Of a DNA stretch of 18,938 bases, positions 6,306 to 15,819 are shown piece by piece. The notes beneath the pieces are model-generated. The model ran no database searches, had not been told where the DNA came from, and saw nothing but the letters and a program-made list of their open reading frames with translations. The translations under genes were made by a program, and so were the position numbers. Source of the DNA: an uncultured archaeon (GTDB taxonomy: Archaea; Aenigmatarchaeota; Aenigmatarchaeia; CG10238-14; SCSR01); NCBI GenBank assembly GCA_964451045.1, contig CAYVFQ010000006.1, positions 1 through 18,938 on the forward strand, in the 5' to 3' direction. Position 1 is the first letter of the stretch. The number at the start of each line of letters is the position of its first letter.

Positions 6306-6698
6306 TTAAGGCTCCCGATTGAAGTTCCTTTCAACGTCTACTCCCATCTCTTCTTTTGCCTTTCTTATTACGTTACAAGGCATCTCAGAACACTCCCCAC
6401 AATTGTCTACTCTCTTTTTTTCTGCGCAGGCTCTGATGGCGCATTCAGGATATCCATCTCCTTCATGACAACCGTTGCAGTCCATGGACGCCAGCCATCT
6501 TAACCCCTTTTTCAAGTCATCGTAATTAAACGGTTCTTGCTTCGGCTCATGCTGTTGCCATCGGTCCAGCTCCGATTCTTCCATGTCTTTCAAAATCTGC
6601 TCAGCTTTCTCCTTTGCTTCCCCCTTTCCTTTAATGCATTTGCCACAGGAAATACCGCAAAAGGAAATCTCATTCCTATCCTTTACTGAGATGTTCAT
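6306..6698 (-). CDS. DUF3795-family cysteine-rich (zinc-binding) protein
   Basis: CGISCGKC...CNGCHEG...CAEKKRVDNCGEC..PC cysteine pattern. The ORF track starts at TTG 6710, abutting the tRNA. The ATG at 6698 (MNISV...) is the more likely start. Confidence 0.7.
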   Translation of the reverse strand: MNISVKDRNEISFCGISCGKCIKGKGEAKEKAEQILKDMEESELDRWQQHEPKQEPFNYDDLKKGLRWLASMDCNGCHEGDGYPECAIRACAEKKRVDNCGECSEMPCNVIRKAKEEMGVDVERNFNREP

Positions 6699-6710
6699 CA
6701 ACTCACTCAA

Positions 6711-6796
6711 TGCGGGAGGTGGGATTCGAACCCACGTAGGAACTAATCCACAGGAACCTCAATCCTGCCGAATTGACCAGACTATCGGACCCCCGC
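6711..6796 (-). tRNA. tRNA-Leu(GAG), type II with long variable arm. No encoded CCA.
   Basis: Reverse complement folds as GCGGGGG / D-arm / CAGGA-TTGAGGT-TCCTG (anticodon GAG) / variable stem-loop GGATTAGTTCC / GTGGG-TTCGAAT-CCCAC / CTCCCGC-A. Confidence 0.85.
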
Positions 6797-6925
6797 ATGC
6801 TTTGACAATTTTGATATTGTCGATGAGCATTATTTAAGCTTTGTATTTTATTAATCCACGACGCCGCATCGCAATTGTCTCGTCCTATGATTAAGTTTTT
6901 AATTGTTTCTACAGATTATAGTTTC

Positions 6926-7741
6926 ATGGAAAAACTTGTTCAGGTTATAAAATTTGGAGGATCTTCTCTTGCTTACGGTGAAGTAAAACCTCAGAGTATA
7001 GAAAACCTAATGGACAGCCCTGAACTGTACGTAAGAAATACTAGTGAACTAAGAAGATACGCTAAAGAACTGTCAGATGCTTGGAACTATCTTTCCAAAA
7101 ATAGAGATTATAGCTTGGTAATTTCACATGGTGTAAAACAATATGGTCATGATGCAGTCGGTTTTATCGGCATTGTGCCTGAGGTGAGAAAATATTGTAA
7201 ATTCTTTAGTGATATGATAGTAGAAAATTTTAGGGAAGAGGGGCTGCCTATAGAACAAATTGATGCTGCAAAAACATGCAAATGGAATGGAAAATTGAAA
7301 ATTTTTGAGGTTAGTAGGTATATCAGGGATGTCAGAAAAACACTTGATAGCGGAGCTATACCGGTTTCTTGGGGAACCGTTGTTGATAGCGTACCAACTG
7401 GATATGATATCATATCGGGTGATGATTGCGTTCTATATCCCGGGCTTCTGCTAAGAGCTGATGAGGCAATAATGTATATGGACGTTTCAGTATGTGATAA
7501 AAACCCTAAAATCCACAGAAATGCTAGAAAACTAGAAGTAGTGAAATCATGCAAAGATTTGAATATCGATATCGACAAACGAGACAAGACGGAAGGACTG
7601 ATTGGGAAAATCAAGAAATTGGAACTTCTGGGGATGAGTGGAACCAGATGCCAGATAGTTGACGCGACTAAAGAAGGAAATATTTACAATTCTCTGGTTG
7701 GGAAGCATGTCGGAACATTGATCGAACCGATTGAAATTTAG
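6926..7741 (+). CDS. Amino-acid-kinase-fold protein, isopentenyl-phosphate-kinase-like. Divergent, AT-rich gene.
   Basis: VIKFGGSSL Gly loop, ISHGVKQYGH (compare IPK VHGGGSFGH), DSGAIPVSWG, ISGDDCV...MYMDV, GTLI C-terminus. The ORF track extends to TTG 6875. The ATG at 6926 gives a canonical N-terminus for the fold. Confidence 0.55.
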   Translation: MEKLVQVIKFGGSSLAYGEVKPQSIENLMDSPELYVRNTSELRRYAKELSDAWNYLSKNRDYSLVISHGVKQYGHDAVGFIGIVPEVRKYCKFFSDMIVENFREEGLPIEQIDAAKTCKWNGKLKIFEVSRYIRDVRKTLDSGAIPVSWGTVVDSVPTGYDIISGDDCVLYPGLLLRADEAIMYMDVSVCDKNPKIHRNARKLEVVKSCKDLNIDIDKRDKTEGLIGKIKKLELLGMSGTRCQIVDATKEGNIYNSLVGKHVGTLIEPIEI

Positions 7742-10085: not shown

Positions 10086-10098
10086 AATGCTCCCGACG
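10086..10098. repeat. 13-bp direct repeat AATGCTCCCGACG, an exact copy of the tRNA-Glu 3' end. Putative distal att site of the inserted element.
   Basis: Identical to 12952-12964, which is the reverse complement of the tRNA-Glu T-stem end, acceptor 3' strand and discriminator. Confidence 0.55.
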
Positions 10099-10134: not shown

Positions 10135-10575
10135 TCAATCAGAAATGCCAACCCCGGTCAACTCGTAACCCATTCTGCGAACCATGGCATACAATACGTC
10201 TTCCTCAGAAGGGACCTTCATATTCAAAGCTTTCATATCCTTCCTTACGTCGTCGATCTCTTTTTTAATCCAAGATTCGGAATTAGCGGGTTTCTCAAAG
10301 AACCTCTTACTAACGAAATCCTGCCATTCACAGTAACTCACGCCATCTCCCATTAGGCCATTGTATCCTGTCAGCACAACCACTGCAGCTGCTACCGCCT
10401 CTTCATTTATCGGATTCCTATAGTAGAGTGGACTTACGTTTTCAAGGATCGCTTCTGCTGATTTATGTCCAGGAACGCCTGCTTCAATTCTCATTCTACC
10501 AAGTAAACGGTAAACCAAACTCCTGACAGTCGACTTGTTTGTCATGTCTTCCATTTGGGATTCTATCGCGTACAT
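10135..10575 (-). CDS. Hypothetical protein (146 aa), first gene inside the tRNA-Glu-linked insertion. Normal G+C.
   Basis: Long ORF with good codon structure and no recognisable motif. Confidence 0.5.
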   Translation of the reverse strand: MYAIESQMEDMTNKSTVRSLVYRLLGRMRIEAGVPGHKSAEAILENVSPLYYRNPINEEAVAAAVVVLTGYNGLMGDGVSYCEWQDFVSKRFFEKPANSESWIKKEIDDVRKDMKALNMKVPSEEDVLYAMVRRMGYELTGVGISD

Positions 10576-10645
10576 GTTGTCAGTGTAAATAATGAACTGA
10601 ATTATTAAGTTGATTTAGATGATCAAATGGATCTATTGGAGAAGA

Positions 10646-11527
10646 TCAATTCTTGTCACTAAAATGAGAGTTCCATTTTTTTATTGTTTTATTATAATGA
10701 TCGATTCCAGAACCACGTGTAAGTTTAATTCCATTGTTTTTATTGAATAGATGTTTATATTGCTTATGATTCAAAGTAGATGAAATTACTCTTTTACTTG
10801 GAATTTTCTTACATCCGAAATCTTTCATTATAGATATTATTTGATCTATATTCTCCACTTCCATGTTTTTCACAATAATAAGAATTCTGTCTATTGTAGA
10901 ATCGATTTTATATAATTTTGATATGTCAAATATTTCTTCTCTTAGTACTAGATTCATCTTTTCAAATGAGGCACTTAGGAGAGAATCAGTGATTTTTGAA
11001 CCAAACCCTAGACACCTATAGAAATTAACTATAATCCAGAAAATGTTTGAGATAGAAAGTTTCGCCTCATAAATTTTCAGCTTATTTGGTTTTAGATGAG
11101 TTCCTTCAAATTTGTTTCTAAGGGTGTAAGTCGAAATCATTGCATATATAAATGGATGATATTCATCTTTGATTACATTTCTTAATTTCAAACACTGTAG
11201 ATCAAATCCCGTATTCGGGATTTTCCACTTATTTAAGTAATAAAAATAATTTCGTATAGCTTCACAGACGTGTGCAGATTTAGTTATAACTCCGGATGGG
11301 TCATTCGGGTACTTTTCTAAAATTTTATCGAAGAGATGTAATACTGTAAACCCGGCCAATAGATTTTCCTTCTTGTTATTCCCTAACGAAGTATTATATT
11401 CACTAATTTTTAGATTCAATATTTCATCATAATCAAAATCAATTCGATTAACAAAAATTTCCCAAAATGCAGTTATGATAGGATCGTTTTCTCCCCAAAA
11501 AAGTTCAGTTAATTCTTTCATATTCAC
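10646..11527 (-). CDS. Hypothetical protein (293 aa), ORFan, about 27-30% G+C
   Basis: Long uninterrupted ORF in a strongly AT-rich segment, 3 nt downstream of the 403-aa ORF (operon). Predicted all-alpha, with no recognisable catalytic motif. Confidence 0.6.
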   Translation of the reverse strand: MNMKELTELFWGENDPIITAFWEIFVNRIDFDYDEILNLKISEYNTSLGNNKKENLLAGFTVLHLFDKILEKYPNDPSGVITKSAHVCEAIRNYFYYLNKWKIPNTGFDLQCLKLRNVIKDEYHPFIYAMISTYTLRNKFEGTHLKPNKLKIYEAKLSISNIFWIIVNFYRCLGFGSKITDSLLSASFEKMNLVLREEIFDISKLYKIDSTIDRILIIVKNMEVENIDQIISIMKDFGCKKIPSKRVISSTLNHKQYKHLFNKNNGIKLTRGSGIDHYNKTIKKWNSHFSDKN

Positions 11528-11530
11528 TCA

Positions 11531-12742
11531 TCAAGCTTTGTCTTTACCTAAATTTTTTCGTATTTCGTTTTCTAAAAACTCTATATCTTTTAAGATAATA
11601 TTTGGATCACTATTTTCTGCTTCTTTGAATGAAAGATAATGATATTCAATTAAATCCAAAATATTTTTTGGAACAATGGTAAACTCTTTAAGTTTATTCA
11701 AGTTTTCTGTGAATGTGTTATCATCTCTATTAGTTATAGCTACTTCGATTGCACCCAAATGTTTCCATAGTTTTGGGGATTCGATTATATTTGATTTCTT
11801 TTCAGATACTTCTTTTCTCTTTATGACCAATTTCCATTTCTTTTTCGAACCTTCTAACAGAGTTGTATTTTTTAACAAGTTCCAGATTTTTTTTCCAGCG
11901 TCTTTTGTGGTACTCTCAGACCAAGATTTTTTCAAATCGTGTCCAATCTTTTTACCTAAATTTATCTGAGTAACAAGTTTACCATCAAAGCTCTGTATAA
12001 GTGGAAGATATTTACTCTCAAGCATAATTGTAGTAAAAATATCTTTACGTTCAAGAGCTGTCAATGATGGATCTATTAATCTTTCACCATTTTCGTTTAT
12101 ACCATGGGTAGACCTAGAGAATCTGTTAACAAGGTTTAATGCATCTGCGACAGCTAGTATTCCCGGAAGTTTTCTTTCATGTATACCAGTTTCAATGCTT
12201 AATTTTTTATTGGACGTTGTACCTAATCTGTTTAAACCTCGTAAAGACCGTACAATATCATTATATGATGCTGATGGAATCGGGTATTCTTCTATGCTAC
12301 CCGCTTCGCCTTCCAACAATAAAGTATCACCAACTAGATACCCATTGCCACTGAAAGATATCAACGATGCACATGATTTTCCATAGGTCTTTGTCGATGC
12401 AGTTTTCCATTTTTTACCATACTTATCTTTAACGATATTTCCTATTTCCACGATAGTTAATTTTCCAGTAGCTTCTAATTTTTTAATTAAATAATCAAAT
12501 AGTTCTATGTCCTTAATAATTTTAGATAAAGTACTACGGGCTTTTTCAATATCATTTCTAATCAGAGCCTCGGTGTATATGTTACCAATAGGAGTTAAAT
12601 TACCTTCTTTATCCATAAATCCTAATAGAGTTAGTGTTGGAGCAACATTTCTGAACGATGGCGGCTTCTTGTTTTTATAAAGCAACTTTAGACTTTCATT
12701 CATCTTATGTGACTGTATATAGGGTATTATCATCACAATCAA
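11531..12742 (-). CDS. Hypothetical protein (403 aa), ORFan, about 27-30% G+C. Possible winged-helix-like N-terminal segments.
   Basis: Long ORF. No PD-(D/E)xK, HxxR...Y, P-loop or other recognisable motif by eye. An AT-rich promoter region lies upstream (12743-12950). Confidence 0.6.
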   Translation of the reverse strand: MIVMIIPYIQSHKMNESLKLLYKNKKPPSFRNVAPTLTLLGFMDKEGNLTPIGNIYTEALIRNDIEKARSTLSKIIKDIELFDYLIKKLEATGKLTIVEIGNIVKDKYGKKWKTASTKTYGKSCASLISFSGNGYLVGDTLLLEGEAGSIEEYPIPSASYNDIVRSLRGLNRLGTTSNKKLSIETGIHERKLPGILAVADALNLVNRFSRSTHGINENGERLIDPSLTALERKDIFTTIMLESKYLPLIQSFDGKLVTQINLGKKIGHDLKKSWSESTTKDAGKKIWNLLKNTTLLEGSKKKWKLVIKRKEVSEKKSNIIESPKLWKHLGAIEVAITNRDDNTFTENLNKLKEFTIVPKNILDLIEYHYLSFKEAENSDPNIILKDIEFLENEIRKNLGKDKA

Positions 12743-12951
12743 CTTTTTCCATTTTATTCATTTTATAATCATTCTTTTCAACTTTGATATTTAAATACTT
12801 CATTATTGGTATGTTTTTATTATATCATAATCTATTGTTCAATTACAAATCCCACAATAGGAATTGTAATGGAATATTGTTATAACTACGCGTATATCAC
12901 CCGCTAGAAGCAGTTTACGACTCATTTTCTAGGGAGTCGTTGTTACAGTAT

Positions 12952-12964
12952 AATGCTCCCGACG
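12952..12964. repeat. Proximal copy of the 13-bp direct repeat, forming the 3' end of tRNA-Glu
   Basis: Exact match to 10086-10098. Confidence 0.55.
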
Positions 12965-13097
12965 GGATTTGAACCCGTGCCATCGGGTATCTTCGTTCTG
13001 TCATGGCCGTGCGGCGTTTCTTACCGTGCGGCTCAACGCTTTCTTAGCATAAGCACTCGAAAGCCCGAGATCCTTGACCGGACTAGACGACGGGAGC
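12954..13097 (-). tRNA. tRNA-Glu(TTC) interrupted by an intron of about 69 nt at the canonical 37/38 position
   Basis: Minus-strand exons: GCTCCCG-TC-GTCT-AGTCCGGTCAA-GGAT-C-TCGGG-CTTTCGA | intron | CCCGA-TGGC-ACGGG-TTCAAAT-CCCGT-CGGGAGC-A. Anticodon TTC. Closely resembles archaeal tRNA-Glu. The 144-nt gene minus a 75-nt mature tRNA leaves about 69 nt of intron (roughly 12988-13056). Confidence 0.8.
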
Positions 13098-15272: not shown

Positions 15273-15411
15273 CACTTTTATTCCCGAAAACTAAAATAGT
15301 ATCAGATAGACTCCCAATGGTGTAAAATCGTTTTCTGCGAGCGATGTAAAGTCGTTTTTGAGTCTTTCTGAATAGAGGTGTGGCAAAATCGTATCTGTGA
15401 AGAATAGAAAA

Positions 15412-15819
15412 ATGAAAATGTTCAGTCAACTCTCCATAAACAGTCTCAGAAAAATCTGCAGGATAGAAAGAGTTTTGGCATCTGGAAAAAAGAGTGAAAT
15501 AGTAGAAAGGCTCGCTGCAAATCTCTCATTGAAAAAGACCAGAATTTATTCAAAGAACCTCGGACTAAGAGAAGGGATGTCTGTATTCAGGCACAAACTT
15601 GTACCTAAGCATAGAATCATAAGTGATAAAGAAAAACAGAATCTTCTCGAAAGATATTCTATCAAACTCCGACAACTGCCAAGGTTGCGAGTCAGGGACC
15701 CTGCCGCCATGGAGATTGGAGCGAAAGTGGGAGATGTTGTGGAGATTACAAGAGAAAGCCTCACAGCTGGGGAAACAAAATACTACAGAGTTGTTGTGAA
15801 GAGCCCCATAAAAAGATGA
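15412..15819 (+). CDS. rpoH: DNA-directed RNA polymerase subunit H (Rpo5) with an in-frame N-terminal SAP-like extension of about 55 aa. The conserved RpoH core corresponds to 15577-15819.
   Basis: C-terminal 80 aa (MSVFRHKLVPKHRIISDKEKQNLLERYSIKLRQLPRLRVRDPAAMEIGAKVGDVVEITRESLTAGETKYYRVVV) align along their length with archaeal RpoH. The upstream in-frame segment has no stop codon for 60 codons and encodes LSINSLRKICRIERVLASGKKSEIVERL. Confidence 0.7.
   Translation: MKMFSQLSINSLRKICRIERVLASGKKSEIVERLAANLSLKKTRIYSKNLGLREGMSVFRHKLVPKHRIISDKEKQNLLERYSIKLRQLPRLRVRDPAAMEIGAKVGDVVEITRESLTAGETKYYRVVVKSPIKR

What the first reader, a model, noticed from the sequence alone, without database searches (positions are those of the whole stretch)
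10646..12742. Low-G+C two-gene ORFan operon (403 aa then 293 aa), candidate for an undescribed accessory or defence module
The two long ORFs are separated by 3 nt and are strongly AT-rich relative to the neighbourhood. They have their own AT-rich promoter region and sit inside the tRNA-linked insertion, a typical location for defence islands. By eye neither shows a known enzymatic signature: no P-loop, PD-(D/E)xK, HNH, DEAD-box or methyltransferase motifs. The 403-aa protein has two N-terminal segments with a winged-helix flavour (SFRNVAPTLTLLGF...LTPIG and LSIETGIHERKLPGILAVADALNLV). Each protein contains one R-x(5-6)-H string (RFSRSTH, RNKFEGTH). That is the spacing of HEPN RNase motifs but is far too weak to assert. 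A tightly coupled pair of unknown proteins in a mobile context is a plausible novel two-component system, with a DNA-binding sensor plus an effector.
Basis: partly seen in the sequence, partly recalled or inferred. Interest (0 to 1): 0.7.

Follow-up and report, generated by a model that had tools for sequence, protein, structure and literature searches.

The report
Horizontally acquired winged-helix gene pair
Two real, tightly coupled genes of foreign, AT-rich origin sit beside a tRNA gene in a DPANN archaeon; the larger belongs to an undescribed family of multi-winged-helix DNA-binding proteins that often lies next to restriction-modification genes elsewhere, so the pair is a credible but unproven immunity-related module.

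Summary
Two intact minus-strand genes, ORF1 (11531-12733, 400 aa) and ORF2 (10646-11521, 291 aa), are separated by a double TGA stop. They lie in a 30% G+C island inside a roughly 46% G+C Aenigmatarchaeota contig. The island starts at the 3' end of an intron-containing tRNA, read by eye as tRNA-Glu. A 13-bp copy of that tRNA end recurs 2.87 kb away.

The genes are not strict ORFans. An exhaustive HMMER search placed ORF1 in a family of about 40 clusters. Its members have four winged-helix modules plus a helical C-terminal domain and no conserved catalytic-type residue. ORF2 has one homologue, encoded directly after the closest ORF1 homologue on a 30% G+C contig that also carries Type I R-M, Mrr-type and Cas4-like nuclease genes.

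In all 12 contexts examined the ORF1-like gene precedes same-strand, mostly tightly spaced partner genes of variable type. Six contexts have restriction-modification genes within 10 kb.

No known defence, toxin-antitoxin, HEPN, integrase or replication family matched. ORF2 keeps a conserved LRNKFxGxH motif, but nothing else supports HEPN.

Best reading: a horizontally acquired DNA-binding protein plus partner cassette typical of archaeal defence islands and mobile elements. Its function is untested.

The parts
11531..12733 (-). ORF1, 400 aa (alternative TTG start at 12742). A multi-winged-helix protein of an uncharacterised family: two tandem units, each a classical wHTH plus an Mrr_N/AAA_assoc_C-like wHTH, followed by a helical C-terminal domain.
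   Evidence: ORF listed. The translation is identical to P0001. The family was found and aligned. The internal duplication gives BLASTP E=0.002.
12578..12664 (-). ORF1 wHTH module 1 (approximate): SFRNVAPTLTLLGF...LTPIG. It lacks about 20 residues present in distant family members.
   Evidence: Alignment. AAA_assoc_C matches this region in relatives: P0009 residues 47-126, 38.4 bits against a cut-off of 27.6.
12308..12466 (-). ORF1 module 2 (approximate): EIGNIVKDKYGKKWKT..TYGKSCASLISFSGNGYL. It contains the invariant G88 and W99.
12029..12211 (-). ORF1 wHTH module 3 (approximate): LSIETGIHERKLPGILAVADALNLVNRF...GINENGERL. It contains the invariant G206.
   Evidence: The family profile matches wHTH regulators at profile positions 177-255 (4o5v E=1.9e-4, CggR, AspA, Csa3). 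Mrr_N matches this module in relatives.
11804..11971 (-). ORF1 module 4 (approximate): LGKKIGHDLKKSWSESTTKDAGKKIWNLLKNTTLLEG. It repeats module 2.
11534..11791 (-). ORF1 C-terminal helical domain. It is conserved across the family; a role as a partner or oligomerisation surface is inferred.
   Evidence: Alignment. The single-sequence AF2 model gives helices with pLDDT 72-82 over residues about 310-340.
10646..11521 (-). ORF2, 291 aa. Its family has two known members. The N-terminal part, about 180 aa, is predicted helical. The C-terminal 100 aa looks wHTH-like by eye only.
   Evidence: One homologue, P0005, was found (39% identity, E=1.5e-44). Alignment.
11096..11122 (-). ORF2 conserved motif L134-R-N-K-F-x-G-x-H142. 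It has R-x6-H spacing, the upper limit of the HEPN Rx4-6H motif.
   Evidence: The motif residues are invariant between ORF2 and P0005. Coordinates were read. No HEPN profile support was found.
12734..12953 (-). AT-rich upstream region (G+C 0.28). It contains TATA-like boxes at 12768-12761 and 12795-12788, and a 15-nt inverted repeat at 12838-12874 that could be an operator.
   Evidence: Sequence, G+C, inverted repeat. The promoter assignment is an inference from the archaeal TATA consensus.
12954..13097 (-). Intron-containing tRNA. I read it by eye as tRNA-Glu(UUC) with an intron of about 72 nt. The AT-rich island begins at its 3' end.
   Evidence: Rfam tRNA match, 46.5 bits. ARAGORN missed it. 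An orthologue with an intron is present in relative L003.
12952..12964 (.). Proximal copy of the 13-bp direct repeat AATGCTCCCGACG. It covers the tRNA 3' end plus 2 nt.
   Evidence: (repeat family D6): the window holds exactly two copies, and none of 200 shuffles gave two or more matches.
10086..10098 (.). Distal copy of the 13-bp direct repeat. It lies between ORF3 and the small57-SPFH operon and is a candidate att site.
10135..10575 (-). ORF3, 146 aa. It lies 70 nt downstream of ORF2 inside the repeat-bounded segment. It has host-like G+C (0.44) and no homologue except itself. It is not part of the conserved pair.
   Evidence: No counterpart was found in L009 or other loci.

Best explanation
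ORF1-ORF2 is a horizontally acquired two-gene cassette inserted beside an intron-containing tRNA (tRNA-Glu by my reading) of an Aenigmatarchaeota (DPANN) genome. The donor was probably a genome of about 30% G+C.

ORF1 is a non-enzymatic DNA-binding protein built from four winged-helix modules and a helical C-terminal domain. It belongs to an uncharacterised family. In every locus examined, the family member is the first gene of a short same-strand group whose downstream partners vary. These groups recurrently lie in restriction-modification or defence islands and in integrated elements.

The proposed mechanism is inferred, not shown. ORF1 binds DNA through its winged-helix array, either at its own operator or by reading a property of DNA such as methylation, as Mrr_N-type winged helices do. 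Through its C-terminal domain it forms a complex with the tightly coupled ORF2. ORF2 would be the subfamily-specific output subunit, with a helical domain carrying the conserved LRNKFxGxH motif. Together they would act as an accessory immunity or immunity-control module carried on a decayed integrative element.

Shown here:
- The genes are real and intact.
- Their composition is foreign.
- They sit at a tRNA 3' end flanked by a direct repeat.
- ORF1 belongs to a winged-helix family.
- The pair is conserved in a second genome.
- The family is linked to R-M genes.

Inferred: DNA binding, complex formation, and a defence or regulatory role.
For: - Real genes: the longest ORF is 408 codons against a shuffle maximum of 165. 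Both proteins align full-length with their homologues.
- Foreign origin: G+C is 0.30 in the island against 0.455 elsewhere, and GC3 is 0.24-0.25. The locus with the closest homologues has G+C of 0.25-0.35 throughout.
- Insertion: the island starts at the tRNA 3' end. The 13-bp repeat of that end occurs only twice in the window, and no shuffle produced two matches.
- Variable slot: the stretch between agmatinase and this tRNA cluster holds different genes in related Aenigmatarchaeota MAGs.
- ORF1 family: 44 hits in all at E<=1e-3, all but three to the ORF1 part of the query. Of 31 members, 19 match AAA_assoc_C (best E=2.4e-12) and 19 match Mrr_N. P0009 passes the Pfam cut-off for AAA_assoc_C. 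The family profile hits only wHTH regulators in the PDB. The only invariant residues are G, W and G.
- Pair conservation: P0004 (42% identity) and P0005 (39% identity) are adjacent on one contig, in the same order and 14 nt apart. Type I HsdM/S/R, Mrr_cat and PDDEXK/Cas4 genes lie within 10 kb.
- Family contexts: R-M genes lie within 10 kb in 6 of 12 clusters. Three of these have the ORF1-like gene and two partners directly upstream of, and co-directional with, an N6-methyltransferase system. With an assumed background of 1-5% (my estimate, not measured), five or more Type I hits in 12 gives a binomial P between 7e-8 and 2e-4.
- Coupling: in most loci the partner gene overlaps the ORF1-like gene or starts within 15 nt; the widest gaps are 59 nt and 141 nt.
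Against: - There is no experimental or structural evidence. The single-sequence AF2 models are unreliable (pLDDT 47.6 and 39.7).
- The window's own 18.9-kb contig has no R-M or other defence gene.
- Four of 12 family contexts show no recognisable defence gene: the window, L010, L021 and L022.
- No PADLOC model matches either protein.
- ORF2 has only one homologue, so pair conservation rests on two genomes.
- No integrase was found in the repeat-bounded 2.87-kb segment. ORF3 inside that segment has host-like G+C, so the element model is incomplete.
- Linkage with R-M genes could simply reflect shared carriage on mobile elements.
Confidence: 0.5

Rival explanations
1. The pair is an abortive-infection or toxin-type module. 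ORF2 would be a divergent HEPN-like RNase using R135 and H142. ORF1 would be its DNA-binding sensor, antitoxin or repressor.
For: - LRNKFxGxH is invariant between ORF2 and its homologue, which is only 39% identical, and it lies in the best-conserved block.
- The N-terminal region is predicted all-helical, with a long helix after the motif, although the model has low confidence.
- The genes are tightly coupled with a DNA-binding partner.
- The homologous pair lies in a nuclease and R-M island.
- HEPN families associated with R-M loci are established knowledge (Anantharaman et al. 2013, cited from memory).
Against: - No HEPN or Abi match was found in Pfam at E<=10 on the split domains, in PADLOC, or in a PDB profile search.
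- R-x6-H is the extreme of the HEPN spacing.
- With two sequences, conservation of a motif is weak evidence.
- ORF1's RFSRSTH string is not conserved.
- At 400 aa and 291 aa, the proteins are much larger than classical toxin-antitoxin pairs.
Confidence: 0.15
2. The genes are leftover cargo or regulators of a decayed small integrative plasmid or provirus. ORF1 would be a repressor, partition protein or replication-initiator-like winged-helix protein of the element, and ORF2 an element-specific accessory protein. They would have no role in immunity.
For: - The pair sits at a tRNA 3' end with a 13-bp direct repeat and foreign G+C.
- A tyrosine integrase lies 1.1 kb upstream of the family member in L012/L013.
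- In N. gargensis, a Cdc6_lid protein lies just upstream and a ParB gene 8.5 kb downstream.
- An iteron-like cluster of TGAACGAA/GTTCA repeats lies upstream of the closest homologue in L009 (P=0.003).
- Tiny cryptic integrated elements of 2.6 kb with a wHTH protein are described in Thaumarchaeota, where the wHTH protein was suggested as a possible Rep (PMC6563490).
Against: - No integrase, Rep, capsid or partition ATPase lies in the repeat-bounded segment.
- Upstream repeats are significant only in L009 and not in the window or the ten other loci checked.
- No relative was found in IMG/VR or PLSDB at the sensitivity used.
- Three loci have the triad directly upstream of and co-directional with R-M genes, which suggests a functional link rather than co-carriage.
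Confidence: 0.28
3. ORF1 is a dedicated transcriptional controller of neighbouring restriction or defence operons, functionally like C-proteins or BrxR/CapW. In this window it would be an orphan that has lost its R-M cargo, and ORF2 an unrelated passenger.
For: - The family member is always the first gene, and in three loci it lies directly upstream of and co-directional with R-M genes.
- It contains only DNA-binding modules and no catalytic-type conserved residues.
- An inverted repeat lies upstream of ORF1.
Against: - Four winged helices plus a conserved 80-aa C-terminal domain is far more than typical controllers have.
- The partners B' and C'1 are themselves paralogous winged-helix proteins, mostly tightly spaced (hhalign probability 93-96%). 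That looks like a multi-subunit complex rather than a lone repressor.
- ORF2 is conserved together with ORF1 in the second genome.
Confidence: 0.2
4. The ORFs are spurious or pseudogenised reading frames in an AT-rich spacer.
For: No family-library hits were obtained for the window proteins themselves.
Against: - Open frames of 400 and 291 codons in 30% G+C DNA far exceed the shuffle maximum of 165.
- Both align full-length with homologues at 39-42% identity from another genome.
- The same genes were called in an independent Logan assembly.
Confidence: 0.01

Closest known systems
PF09821 AAA_assoc_C and PF14338 Mrr_N winged-helix domains, including the winged-helix readers of methylated DNA in Mrr and in wH-fusion Type IV restriction enzymes (PMC11037411)
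   Same: The ORF1 family modules match these models: 19 of 31 members each, and P0009 scores above the Pfam cut-off for AAA_assoc_C. Like Mrr-type enzymes, family members lie beside restriction systems.
   Different: No nuclease or ATPase domain is attached. There are four winged-helix modules in one chain plus a novel C-terminal helical domain. The window protein itself does not reach either model's threshold.
Lead-gene regulators of defence operons: R-M controller (C) proteins and BrxR/CapW WYL regulators (PMC9122589)
   Same: A DNA-binding protein is encoded first and on the same strand, upstream of varied restriction or defence genes.
   Different: There is no WYL or Xre domain. The protein is 400-450 aa with four wHTH modules. 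At least four of the twelve contexts are clearly archaeal. It comes with paralogous winged-helix partners or, in this window, with ORF2. A regulatory role is untested.
HEPN-containing Abi proteins with HTH domains, such as the Abi_2/AbiD-F type (cited from memory)
   Same: ORF2 is about 290 aa, has a helical domain with a conserved R-N-...-H motif and a putative HTH region, and its homologue lies in a defence island.
   Different: No profile match to any HEPN or Abi model was found. The motif spacing is R-x6-H. The domain order would be reversed, with the HTH at the C-terminus.
Cryptic integrated elements of archaea, for example the 2.6-kb NitUzo-E2 of Thaumarchaeota (PMC6563490)
   Same: A very small segment of 2.87 kb is bounded by direct repeats at a tRNA. 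It encodes a wHTH protein plus hypothetical proteins.
   Different: No integrase gene is present. The G+C content inside the segment is heterogeneous, because ORF3 is host-like. No empty site or excision product was observed.

Membership tests
HEPN RNase superfamily (ORF2) | Rx4-6H motif conserved among homologues | tested here: met
   R135-x6-H142 (LRNKFEGTH) is invariant in P0005 (LRNKFFGAH). Only two sequences are available, and the spacing is at the upper limit.
HEPN RNase superfamily (ORF2) | Significant profile match to a HEPN or Abi family model | tested here: not met
   Pfam gave no match on the whole protein or on split domains at E<=10. PADLOC gave none. A PDB profile search gave only a chance hit to a Cna pilin.
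HEPN RNase superfamily (ORF2) | Four-helix up-down bundle fold with the motif at the catalytic helix | not testable with these tools
HEPN RNase superfamily (ORF1, RFSRSTH string) | Conserved Rx4-6H motif | tested here: not met
   The closest homologue P0004 has RFSKSVY at this site, and the site is variable across the family.
Winged-helix (AAA_assoc_C / Mrr_N-like) DNA-binding proteins (ORF1) | Profile match to wHTH models | tested here: met
   Not met by the window protein alone. It is met at family level: AAA_assoc_C in 19 of 31 members (best E=2.4e-12), Mrr_N in 19 of 31, P0009 at 38.4 bits against a cut-off of 27.6, and PDB wHTH regulators at E=1.9e-4. The window protein is homologous to these members at E between 1e-17 and 1e-29.
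Known anti-phage defence systems (PADLOC-DB 2.0) | HMM match of the component proteins | tested here: not met
   ORF1, ORF2, ORF3, P0004 and P0005 gave no hits. P0009 matched only generic wHTH regions of Csa3 and CARF models.
Defence-island gene (guilt by association) | Recurrent location next to known defence genes in unrelated genomes | tested here: met
   R-M genes lie within 10 kb in 6 of 12 family contexts, and toxin-antitoxin or Abi genes in two more. The window itself has none. The sample is small and the background rate was assumed.
tRNA-targeting integrative element | Location at a tRNA 3' end with a direct repeat of the tRNA end at the distal border | tested here: met
   A 13-bp exact repeat lies at 12952-12964 and 10086-10098. 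None of 200 shuffles gave two matches.
tRNA-targeting integrative element | Integrase or recombinase gene inside the element | tested here: not met
   None of the three enclosed proteins matched a recombinase in Pfam, NCBIfam or PHROGs.
tRNA-targeting integrative element | Empty site in close relatives, or an excision junction | tested here: inconclusive
   Relatives at 62-75% protein identity have different genes at this position, but none is close enough to show a clean empty site. A metagenome scan with the tRNA 3' end gave 8 loci, with no second core copy and no homologues.
Iteron-binding replication initiators | Array of repeated binding sites next to the gene | tested here: not met
   Repeats are significant only upstream of the L009 homologue (P=0.003). 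They are not significant in the window or the ten other loci checked.
Type II toxin-antitoxin pair | Small (about 70-150 aa) antitoxin and toxin from known families | tested here: not met
   The proteins are 400 and 291 aa, with no match to a toxin-antitoxin family.

The most novel reading that the evidence does not exclude
The ORF1 family may define an undescribed archaeal immunity module. Arrays of Mrr_N/AAA_assoc_C-type winged helices would read the modification state or sequence of DNA. They would couple, through a conserved C-terminal domain, to interchangeable partners. These partners are paralogous winged-helix proteins with an adjacent Type I R-M or McrBC system in most lineages, and in the window's subfamily a distinct ORF2 effector with a conserved RNKFxGxH motif. 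The window would then hold a minimal two-gene stand-alone version, spread by horizontal transfer into a DPANN genome. DPANN genomes are reported to be poor in R-M and CRISPR systems (PMC12988326).
Probability: 0.25. Interest if true: 0.8.

Novelty: new variant of a known kind. Interest (0 to 1): 0.55.

Why it matters
Archaeal immunity, and DPANN immunity in particular, is poorly charted. [quoted passage not shown]

This analysis turns an apparent ORFan pair into a tractable family of about 40 protein clusters. The family has a defined architecture, a reproducible operon grammar (a lead winged-helix gene followed by variable partners), and a marked link to restriction systems.

If the family is functional in defence or in defence control, it would add an archaeal-type component to R-M biology. 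It would also give a compact two-gene version for experiments.

If it is only mobile-element cargo, it still marks this tRNA 3' end as a candidate integration site in Aenigmatarchaeota.

Tried and rejected
- **Family libraries.** Pfam, NCBIfam, PADLOC and PHROGs gave nothing above noise for the window proteins.
- **Word-indexed search.** The search of 5.8 billion proteins found only self for ORF1, ORF2 and ORF3.
- **PDB sequence search.** The only hit was a chance match to a Cna pilin. tblastn against plasmids returned the same spurious pilin hit for ORF2 and nothing for ORF1.
- **Structure prediction.** Single-sequence AlphaFold2 gave pLDDT 47.6 and 39.7. Foldseek of the ORF1 model against the PDB gave no match better than E=0.84.
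- **Joint search of both ORFs.** A plain fused sequence was accepted.
- **Partner homology.** hhalign of ORF2 and ORF3 against the partner families B', C'1 and C'2 and against the ORF1 family showed no relationship (probability <=1.1%).
- **Locus searches.** IMG/VR scans with ORF1, ORF2, P0004 and P0009 found no relatives.
- **Empty-site search.** A metagenome scan with the tRNA 3' end gave 8 loci, with no second repeat copy and no homologues.
- **Iteron or operator search.** Repeats upstream of 12 family genes were significant only in L009.
- **Promoter scan.** The bacterial sigma-70 and terminator scan gave chance-level results and does not apply to an archaeon.
- **Literature.** No paper on AAA_assoc_C/PF09821 in this context or on Ngar_c31380 was found. 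Two papers on archaeal dark-matter islands and thaumarchaeal integrated elements, and one on archaeal immune strategies, showed no mention of this family in term searches of their text.
Full report

The window has two long minus-strand ORFs exactly where stated: 11531..12742 (403 aa from TTG) and 10646..11527 (293 aa). They share one reading frame, and the "3 nt" between them is a second stop codon, giving ...GCT TGA TGA GTG AAT ATG....

The longest ORF in the region is 408 codons, against a mean of 81 and a maximum of 165 in 1000 shuffles of the same AT-rich sequence. These ORFs are therefore not chance.

G+C is 0.316 for ORF1 and 0.288 for ORF2, with GC3 of 0.24-0.25. Most neighbouring genes have G+C of 0.44-0.52 and GC3 of 0.5-0.68. 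The block 10580-12950 has G+C 0.301, against 0.455 for the rest of the contig.

The family alignment described below shows a conserved N-terminal "IPY" motif, which fixes the ORF1 start at ATG 12733. This gives 400 aa, identical to database protein P0001. The most likely ORF2 start is ATG 11521, giving 291 aa, identical to P0002.

**2. Genomic setting**

The flanking genes are archaeal housekeeping genes:
- rubrerythrin, FMN reductase, superoxide dismutase, Ogg and ThiI;
- agmatinase-type arginase, SPFH and a metallophosphoesterase;
- RpoH and an ABC transporter.

The metallophosphoesterase has 62-75% identical orthologues in Aenigmatarchaeota and uncultured-archaeon MAGs. The host is therefore a DPANN archaeon.

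Rfam finds a fourth tRNA that ARAGORN missed, at 12954-13097 on the minus strand. It has a long intron, and I read it by eye as tRNA-Glu(UUC). An intron-bearing orthologue exists in relative L003.

The AT-rich block begins exactly at the 3' end of this tRNA. The last 11 nt of the tRNA plus 2 nt, AATGCTCCCGACG, recur once more at 10086-10098. These are the only two copies in the window, and none of 200 shuffles gave two matches. The distal copy lies just upstream of the ribosome-binding site of a small membrane-protein and SPFH operon.

The repeats bound a 2.87-kb segment holding ORF1, ORF2 and a third gene, ORF3 (146 aa, 10135-10575). ORF3 has no homologue other than itself and has host-like G+C.

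In relatives, the slot between agmatinase and the tRNA cluster holds unrelated genes:
- a TBP gene and small ORFs in L006;
- a 1011-aa secreted protein in L003;
- a 397-aa protein next to tRNA-Ile in L004.

Together this supports insertion at a tRNA 3' end. The segment contains no integrase, and no empty site could be recovered. The element is therefore decayed, mobilised in trans, or composite.

**3. The genes are not ORFans**

Library searches, PDB sequence searches and word-indexed searches found nothing. An exhaustive phmmer search of 1.84 billion representatives, using a fused ORF1+ORF2 query, found 44 hits at E<=1e-3.

- **ORF1.** The closest relative is P0004 (392 aa, 42% identity, E=2e-86). 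About 40 more distant relatives follow, at 22-35% identity and mostly 420-450 aa. One is the Nitrososphaera gargensis hypothetical protein Ngar_c31380.
- **ORF2.** It has exactly one relative, P0005 (275 aa, 39% identity, E=1.5e-44).

P0004 and P0005 are adjacent on one 55-kb contig, in the same order and on the same strand, 14 nt apart.

That contig has G+C of 0.25-0.35 throughout, matching the composition of the window's island. This suggests transfer from a low-G+C lineage into the roughly 46% G+C host.

**4. What ORF1 is**

A 31-sequence alignment shows this architecture:
- a short N-terminal motif;
- two tandem units, each a classical wHTH followed by a second winged-helix-like module with a W...T/S...YG...A..L signature;
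- a variable linker;
- a conserved helical C-terminal domain of about 80 residues.

The internal duplication is detectable in the window protein itself (BLASTP E=0.002).

Scanning each family member against Pfam gives AAA_assoc_C in 19 of 31 (best E=2.4e-12) and Mrr_N in 19 of 31. HTH_45, wHTH-PRTase_assc, ArsR, MarR and IclR also match. P0009 exceeds the curated AAA_assoc_C cut-off, at 38.4 bits against 27.6.

The family profile hits only winged-helix regulators in the PDB: an iron-dependent repressor-related protein at E=1.9e-4, then CggR, AspA, Csa3 and MarR.

The only invariant residues are G88, W99 and G206. The nearly invariant ones are P, N, G, L, I, S and W. Nothing resembles a catalytic set.

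ORF1 is therefore best described as a non-enzymatic protein with four winged helices that binds DNA or acts as a scaffold. Its RFSRSTH string is not conserved.

**5. What ORF2 is**

ORF2 and P0005 share a strongly conserved central block: YFYY..W..P..GF..QCLKL.RN...D.Y.PF.Y.....Y.LRNKF.G.H.K....K.YEAK. They also share a C-terminal block, GCKKIPS...L.HK.Y..LF.K..G.I.LT.G.G, which looks like a helix-turn-helix with a wing.

However, no HEPN, Abi or any other model matched:
- Pfam, including split domains at E<=10;
- PADLOC;
- a PDB profile search.

The single-sequence AlphaFold model is unusable (pLDDT 39.7). The HEPN idea survives only as a motif-level lead.

ORF2 has no detectable relationship to the partner proteins of distant ORF1-family genes (hhalign probability <=1.1%).

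**6. Operon grammar and neighbourhoods of the family**

I retrieved contexts for eleven further family clusters. In every case the ORF1-like gene comes first. One to three same-strand genes follow, and most overlap it or start within 15 nt; the widest gaps are 59 and 141 nt (L022, L010).

The partner genes fall into three recurrent families:
- B', 184-249 aa, in six loci;
- C'1, 313-338 aa, in four loci;
- C'2, 305-320 aa, or split into two genes.

B' and C'1 share the winged-helix unit of ORF1 (hhalign probability 96% and 93%). Other loci have different small partners, and the window and L009 have ORF2.

Restriction-modification genes lie within 10 kb in six of the twelve contexts.
- In three, the triad sits directly upstream of and co-directional with the restriction genes:
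  - L012/13: triad, then HsdM, HsdS and HsdR;
  - L014-16: triad, then an HsdR-like gene and a fused methyltransferase/S gene;
  - L024: triad, then a methyltransferase, McrBC, RadC and MNT/HEPN.
- In three, a Type I system lies nearby (L009, L017, L025).

Two further contexts have toxin-antitoxin or Abi genes (L019 and L020). An integrase flanks L012/13. With an assumed 1-5% background, which is my estimate, five or more Type I hits in 12 gives a binomial P between 7e-8 and 2e-4.

The window itself and three other contexts show no defence gene.

**7. Most likely mechanism**

I commit to this reading with confidence of about 0.5. The pair is a horizontally acquired accessory cassette of the type that populates archaeal defence islands and integrated elements. 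ORF1 binds DNA with its winged-helix array and complexes with the co-translated ORF2 through its C-terminal domain. The output is immunity-related, either direct or regulatory.

Gene reality, foreign origin, position at the tRNA with a repeat, the winged-helix architecture, pair conservation and R-M linkage are shown. DNA binding, complex formation and biological role are inferred.

Rival readings:
- mobile-element housekeeping or regulation only (0.28);
- a lone transcriptional controller that has lost its R-M cargo (0.2);
- a HEPN-type abortive-infection pair (0.15);
- spurious ORFs (0.01, refuted).

These rivals partly overlap with the main model.

**8. Comparison with known systems and novelty**

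No component matches PADLOC defence models. The literature searches found no description of this family.

Functionally, the nearest analogues are:
- winged-helix readers of the Mrr_N type;
- lead-gene regulators of defence operons (C-proteins and BrxR);
- HTH-HEPN Abi proteins, for ORF2;
- tiny cryptic integrated elements of archaea (PMC6563490).

Membership in each is either not met or only partly met, as the membership table shows. I rate the finding as a new variant of a known kind: a defence-island or mobile-element DNA-binding cassette built on generic winged-helix modules.

The more novel reading, a new R-M-associated archaeal system with interchangeable partners, is not excluded. I give it a probability of about 0.25.

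**9. Limits**

- The neighbourhood sample is 12 clusters, and the background rate was assumed.
- ORF2 conservation rests on two sequences.
- The taxonomy of the L009 contig is unknown.
- The archaeal promoter assignment (TATA-like boxes at 12768-12761 and 12795-12788) was made by eye.

Noticed in passing
window 6875-7741 (+): An amino-acid-kinase family gene with low G+C (0.37; GC3 0.31) sits between tRNA-Leu(GAG) (6710-6797) and the agmatinase gene. In relatives L003 and L006 the tRNA-Leu abuts agmatinase directly. This looks like a second lineage-specific insertion in the window.
   Followed up: partly
window 12954-13097 (-): A tRNA with an intron of about 72 nt, tRNA-Glu(UUC) by my reading, is found by Rfam (46.5 bits) but missed by ARAGORN. 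An orthologue in L003 (4706-4856) has identical exons and a divergent intron.
   Followed up: partly
window 15397-15819 (+): The RNA polymerase subunit RpoH/Rpb5 carries a weak N-terminal SAP-like match (E=2.5e-4, 21.0 bits, below the curated cut-off of 23.9). An orthologue is present in L002.
   Followed up: no
window 11528-11533: ORF1 and ORF2 are in the same reading frame, separated only by a tandem TGA-TGA stop, and the ATG of ORF2 follows 6 nt later. In L009 the homologous genes are 14 nt apart and the second starts with TTG.
   Followed up: yes
L009 9718-9852: A dense cluster of GTTCA/TGAACGAA repeats, direct and inverted, lies 150-280 nt upstream of the closest ORF1 homologue (8-mer present four times, shuffle P=0.003). 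The window and the ten other family loci checked have no equivalent. It could be an operator or iteron array.
   Followed up: partly
window 12838-12874: A 15-nt inverted repeat (TTCAATTACAAATCC / GGAATTGTAATGGAA, 87% complementary, 7-nt spacer) lies about 100-140 nt upstream of the ORF1 start. It could be an operator.
   Followed up: no
L003 4940-6387 (-): In a related Aenigmatarchaeota MAG, an unannotated pair of genes (381 aa and 101 aa) lies between the orthologous intron-containing tRNA and another tRNA (6429-6517). This is another variable cargo at the same tRNA cluster.
   Followed up: no
L012 10001-12990; L014 1187-4213; L024 287-3292; L020, L021, L025: Distant ORF1-family genes head a recurrent triad with two further uncharacterised families, B' (184-249 aa) and C' (305-338 aa). 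B' and C'1 are themselves paralogous to the winged-helix unit of ORF1 (hhalign probability 93-96%). Three triads sit directly upstream of and co-directional with R-M genes.
   Followed up: partly
L014 4241-6618 and L016 3308-5685, compared with L015 3477-5855: The HsdR-like helicase downstream of the triad is one 792-aa gene in L015. In L014 and L016 it is split into 244-aa and 477-513-aa ORFs, which suggests inactivation of the restriction subunit in some population variants.
   Followed up: no
L010 9236-9850: In Nitrososphaera gargensis the family member Ngar_c31380 is preceded by a 204-aa protein with only a Cdc6_lid domain. A ParB-like gene lies about 8.5 kb downstream.
   Followed up: no
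window 10135-10575 (-): ORF3 (146 aa) has no homologue other than itself in 5.8 billion protein clusters. Its G+C is host-like (0.44), although it lies inside the repeat-bounded segment next to the 30% G+C pair.
   Followed up: partly
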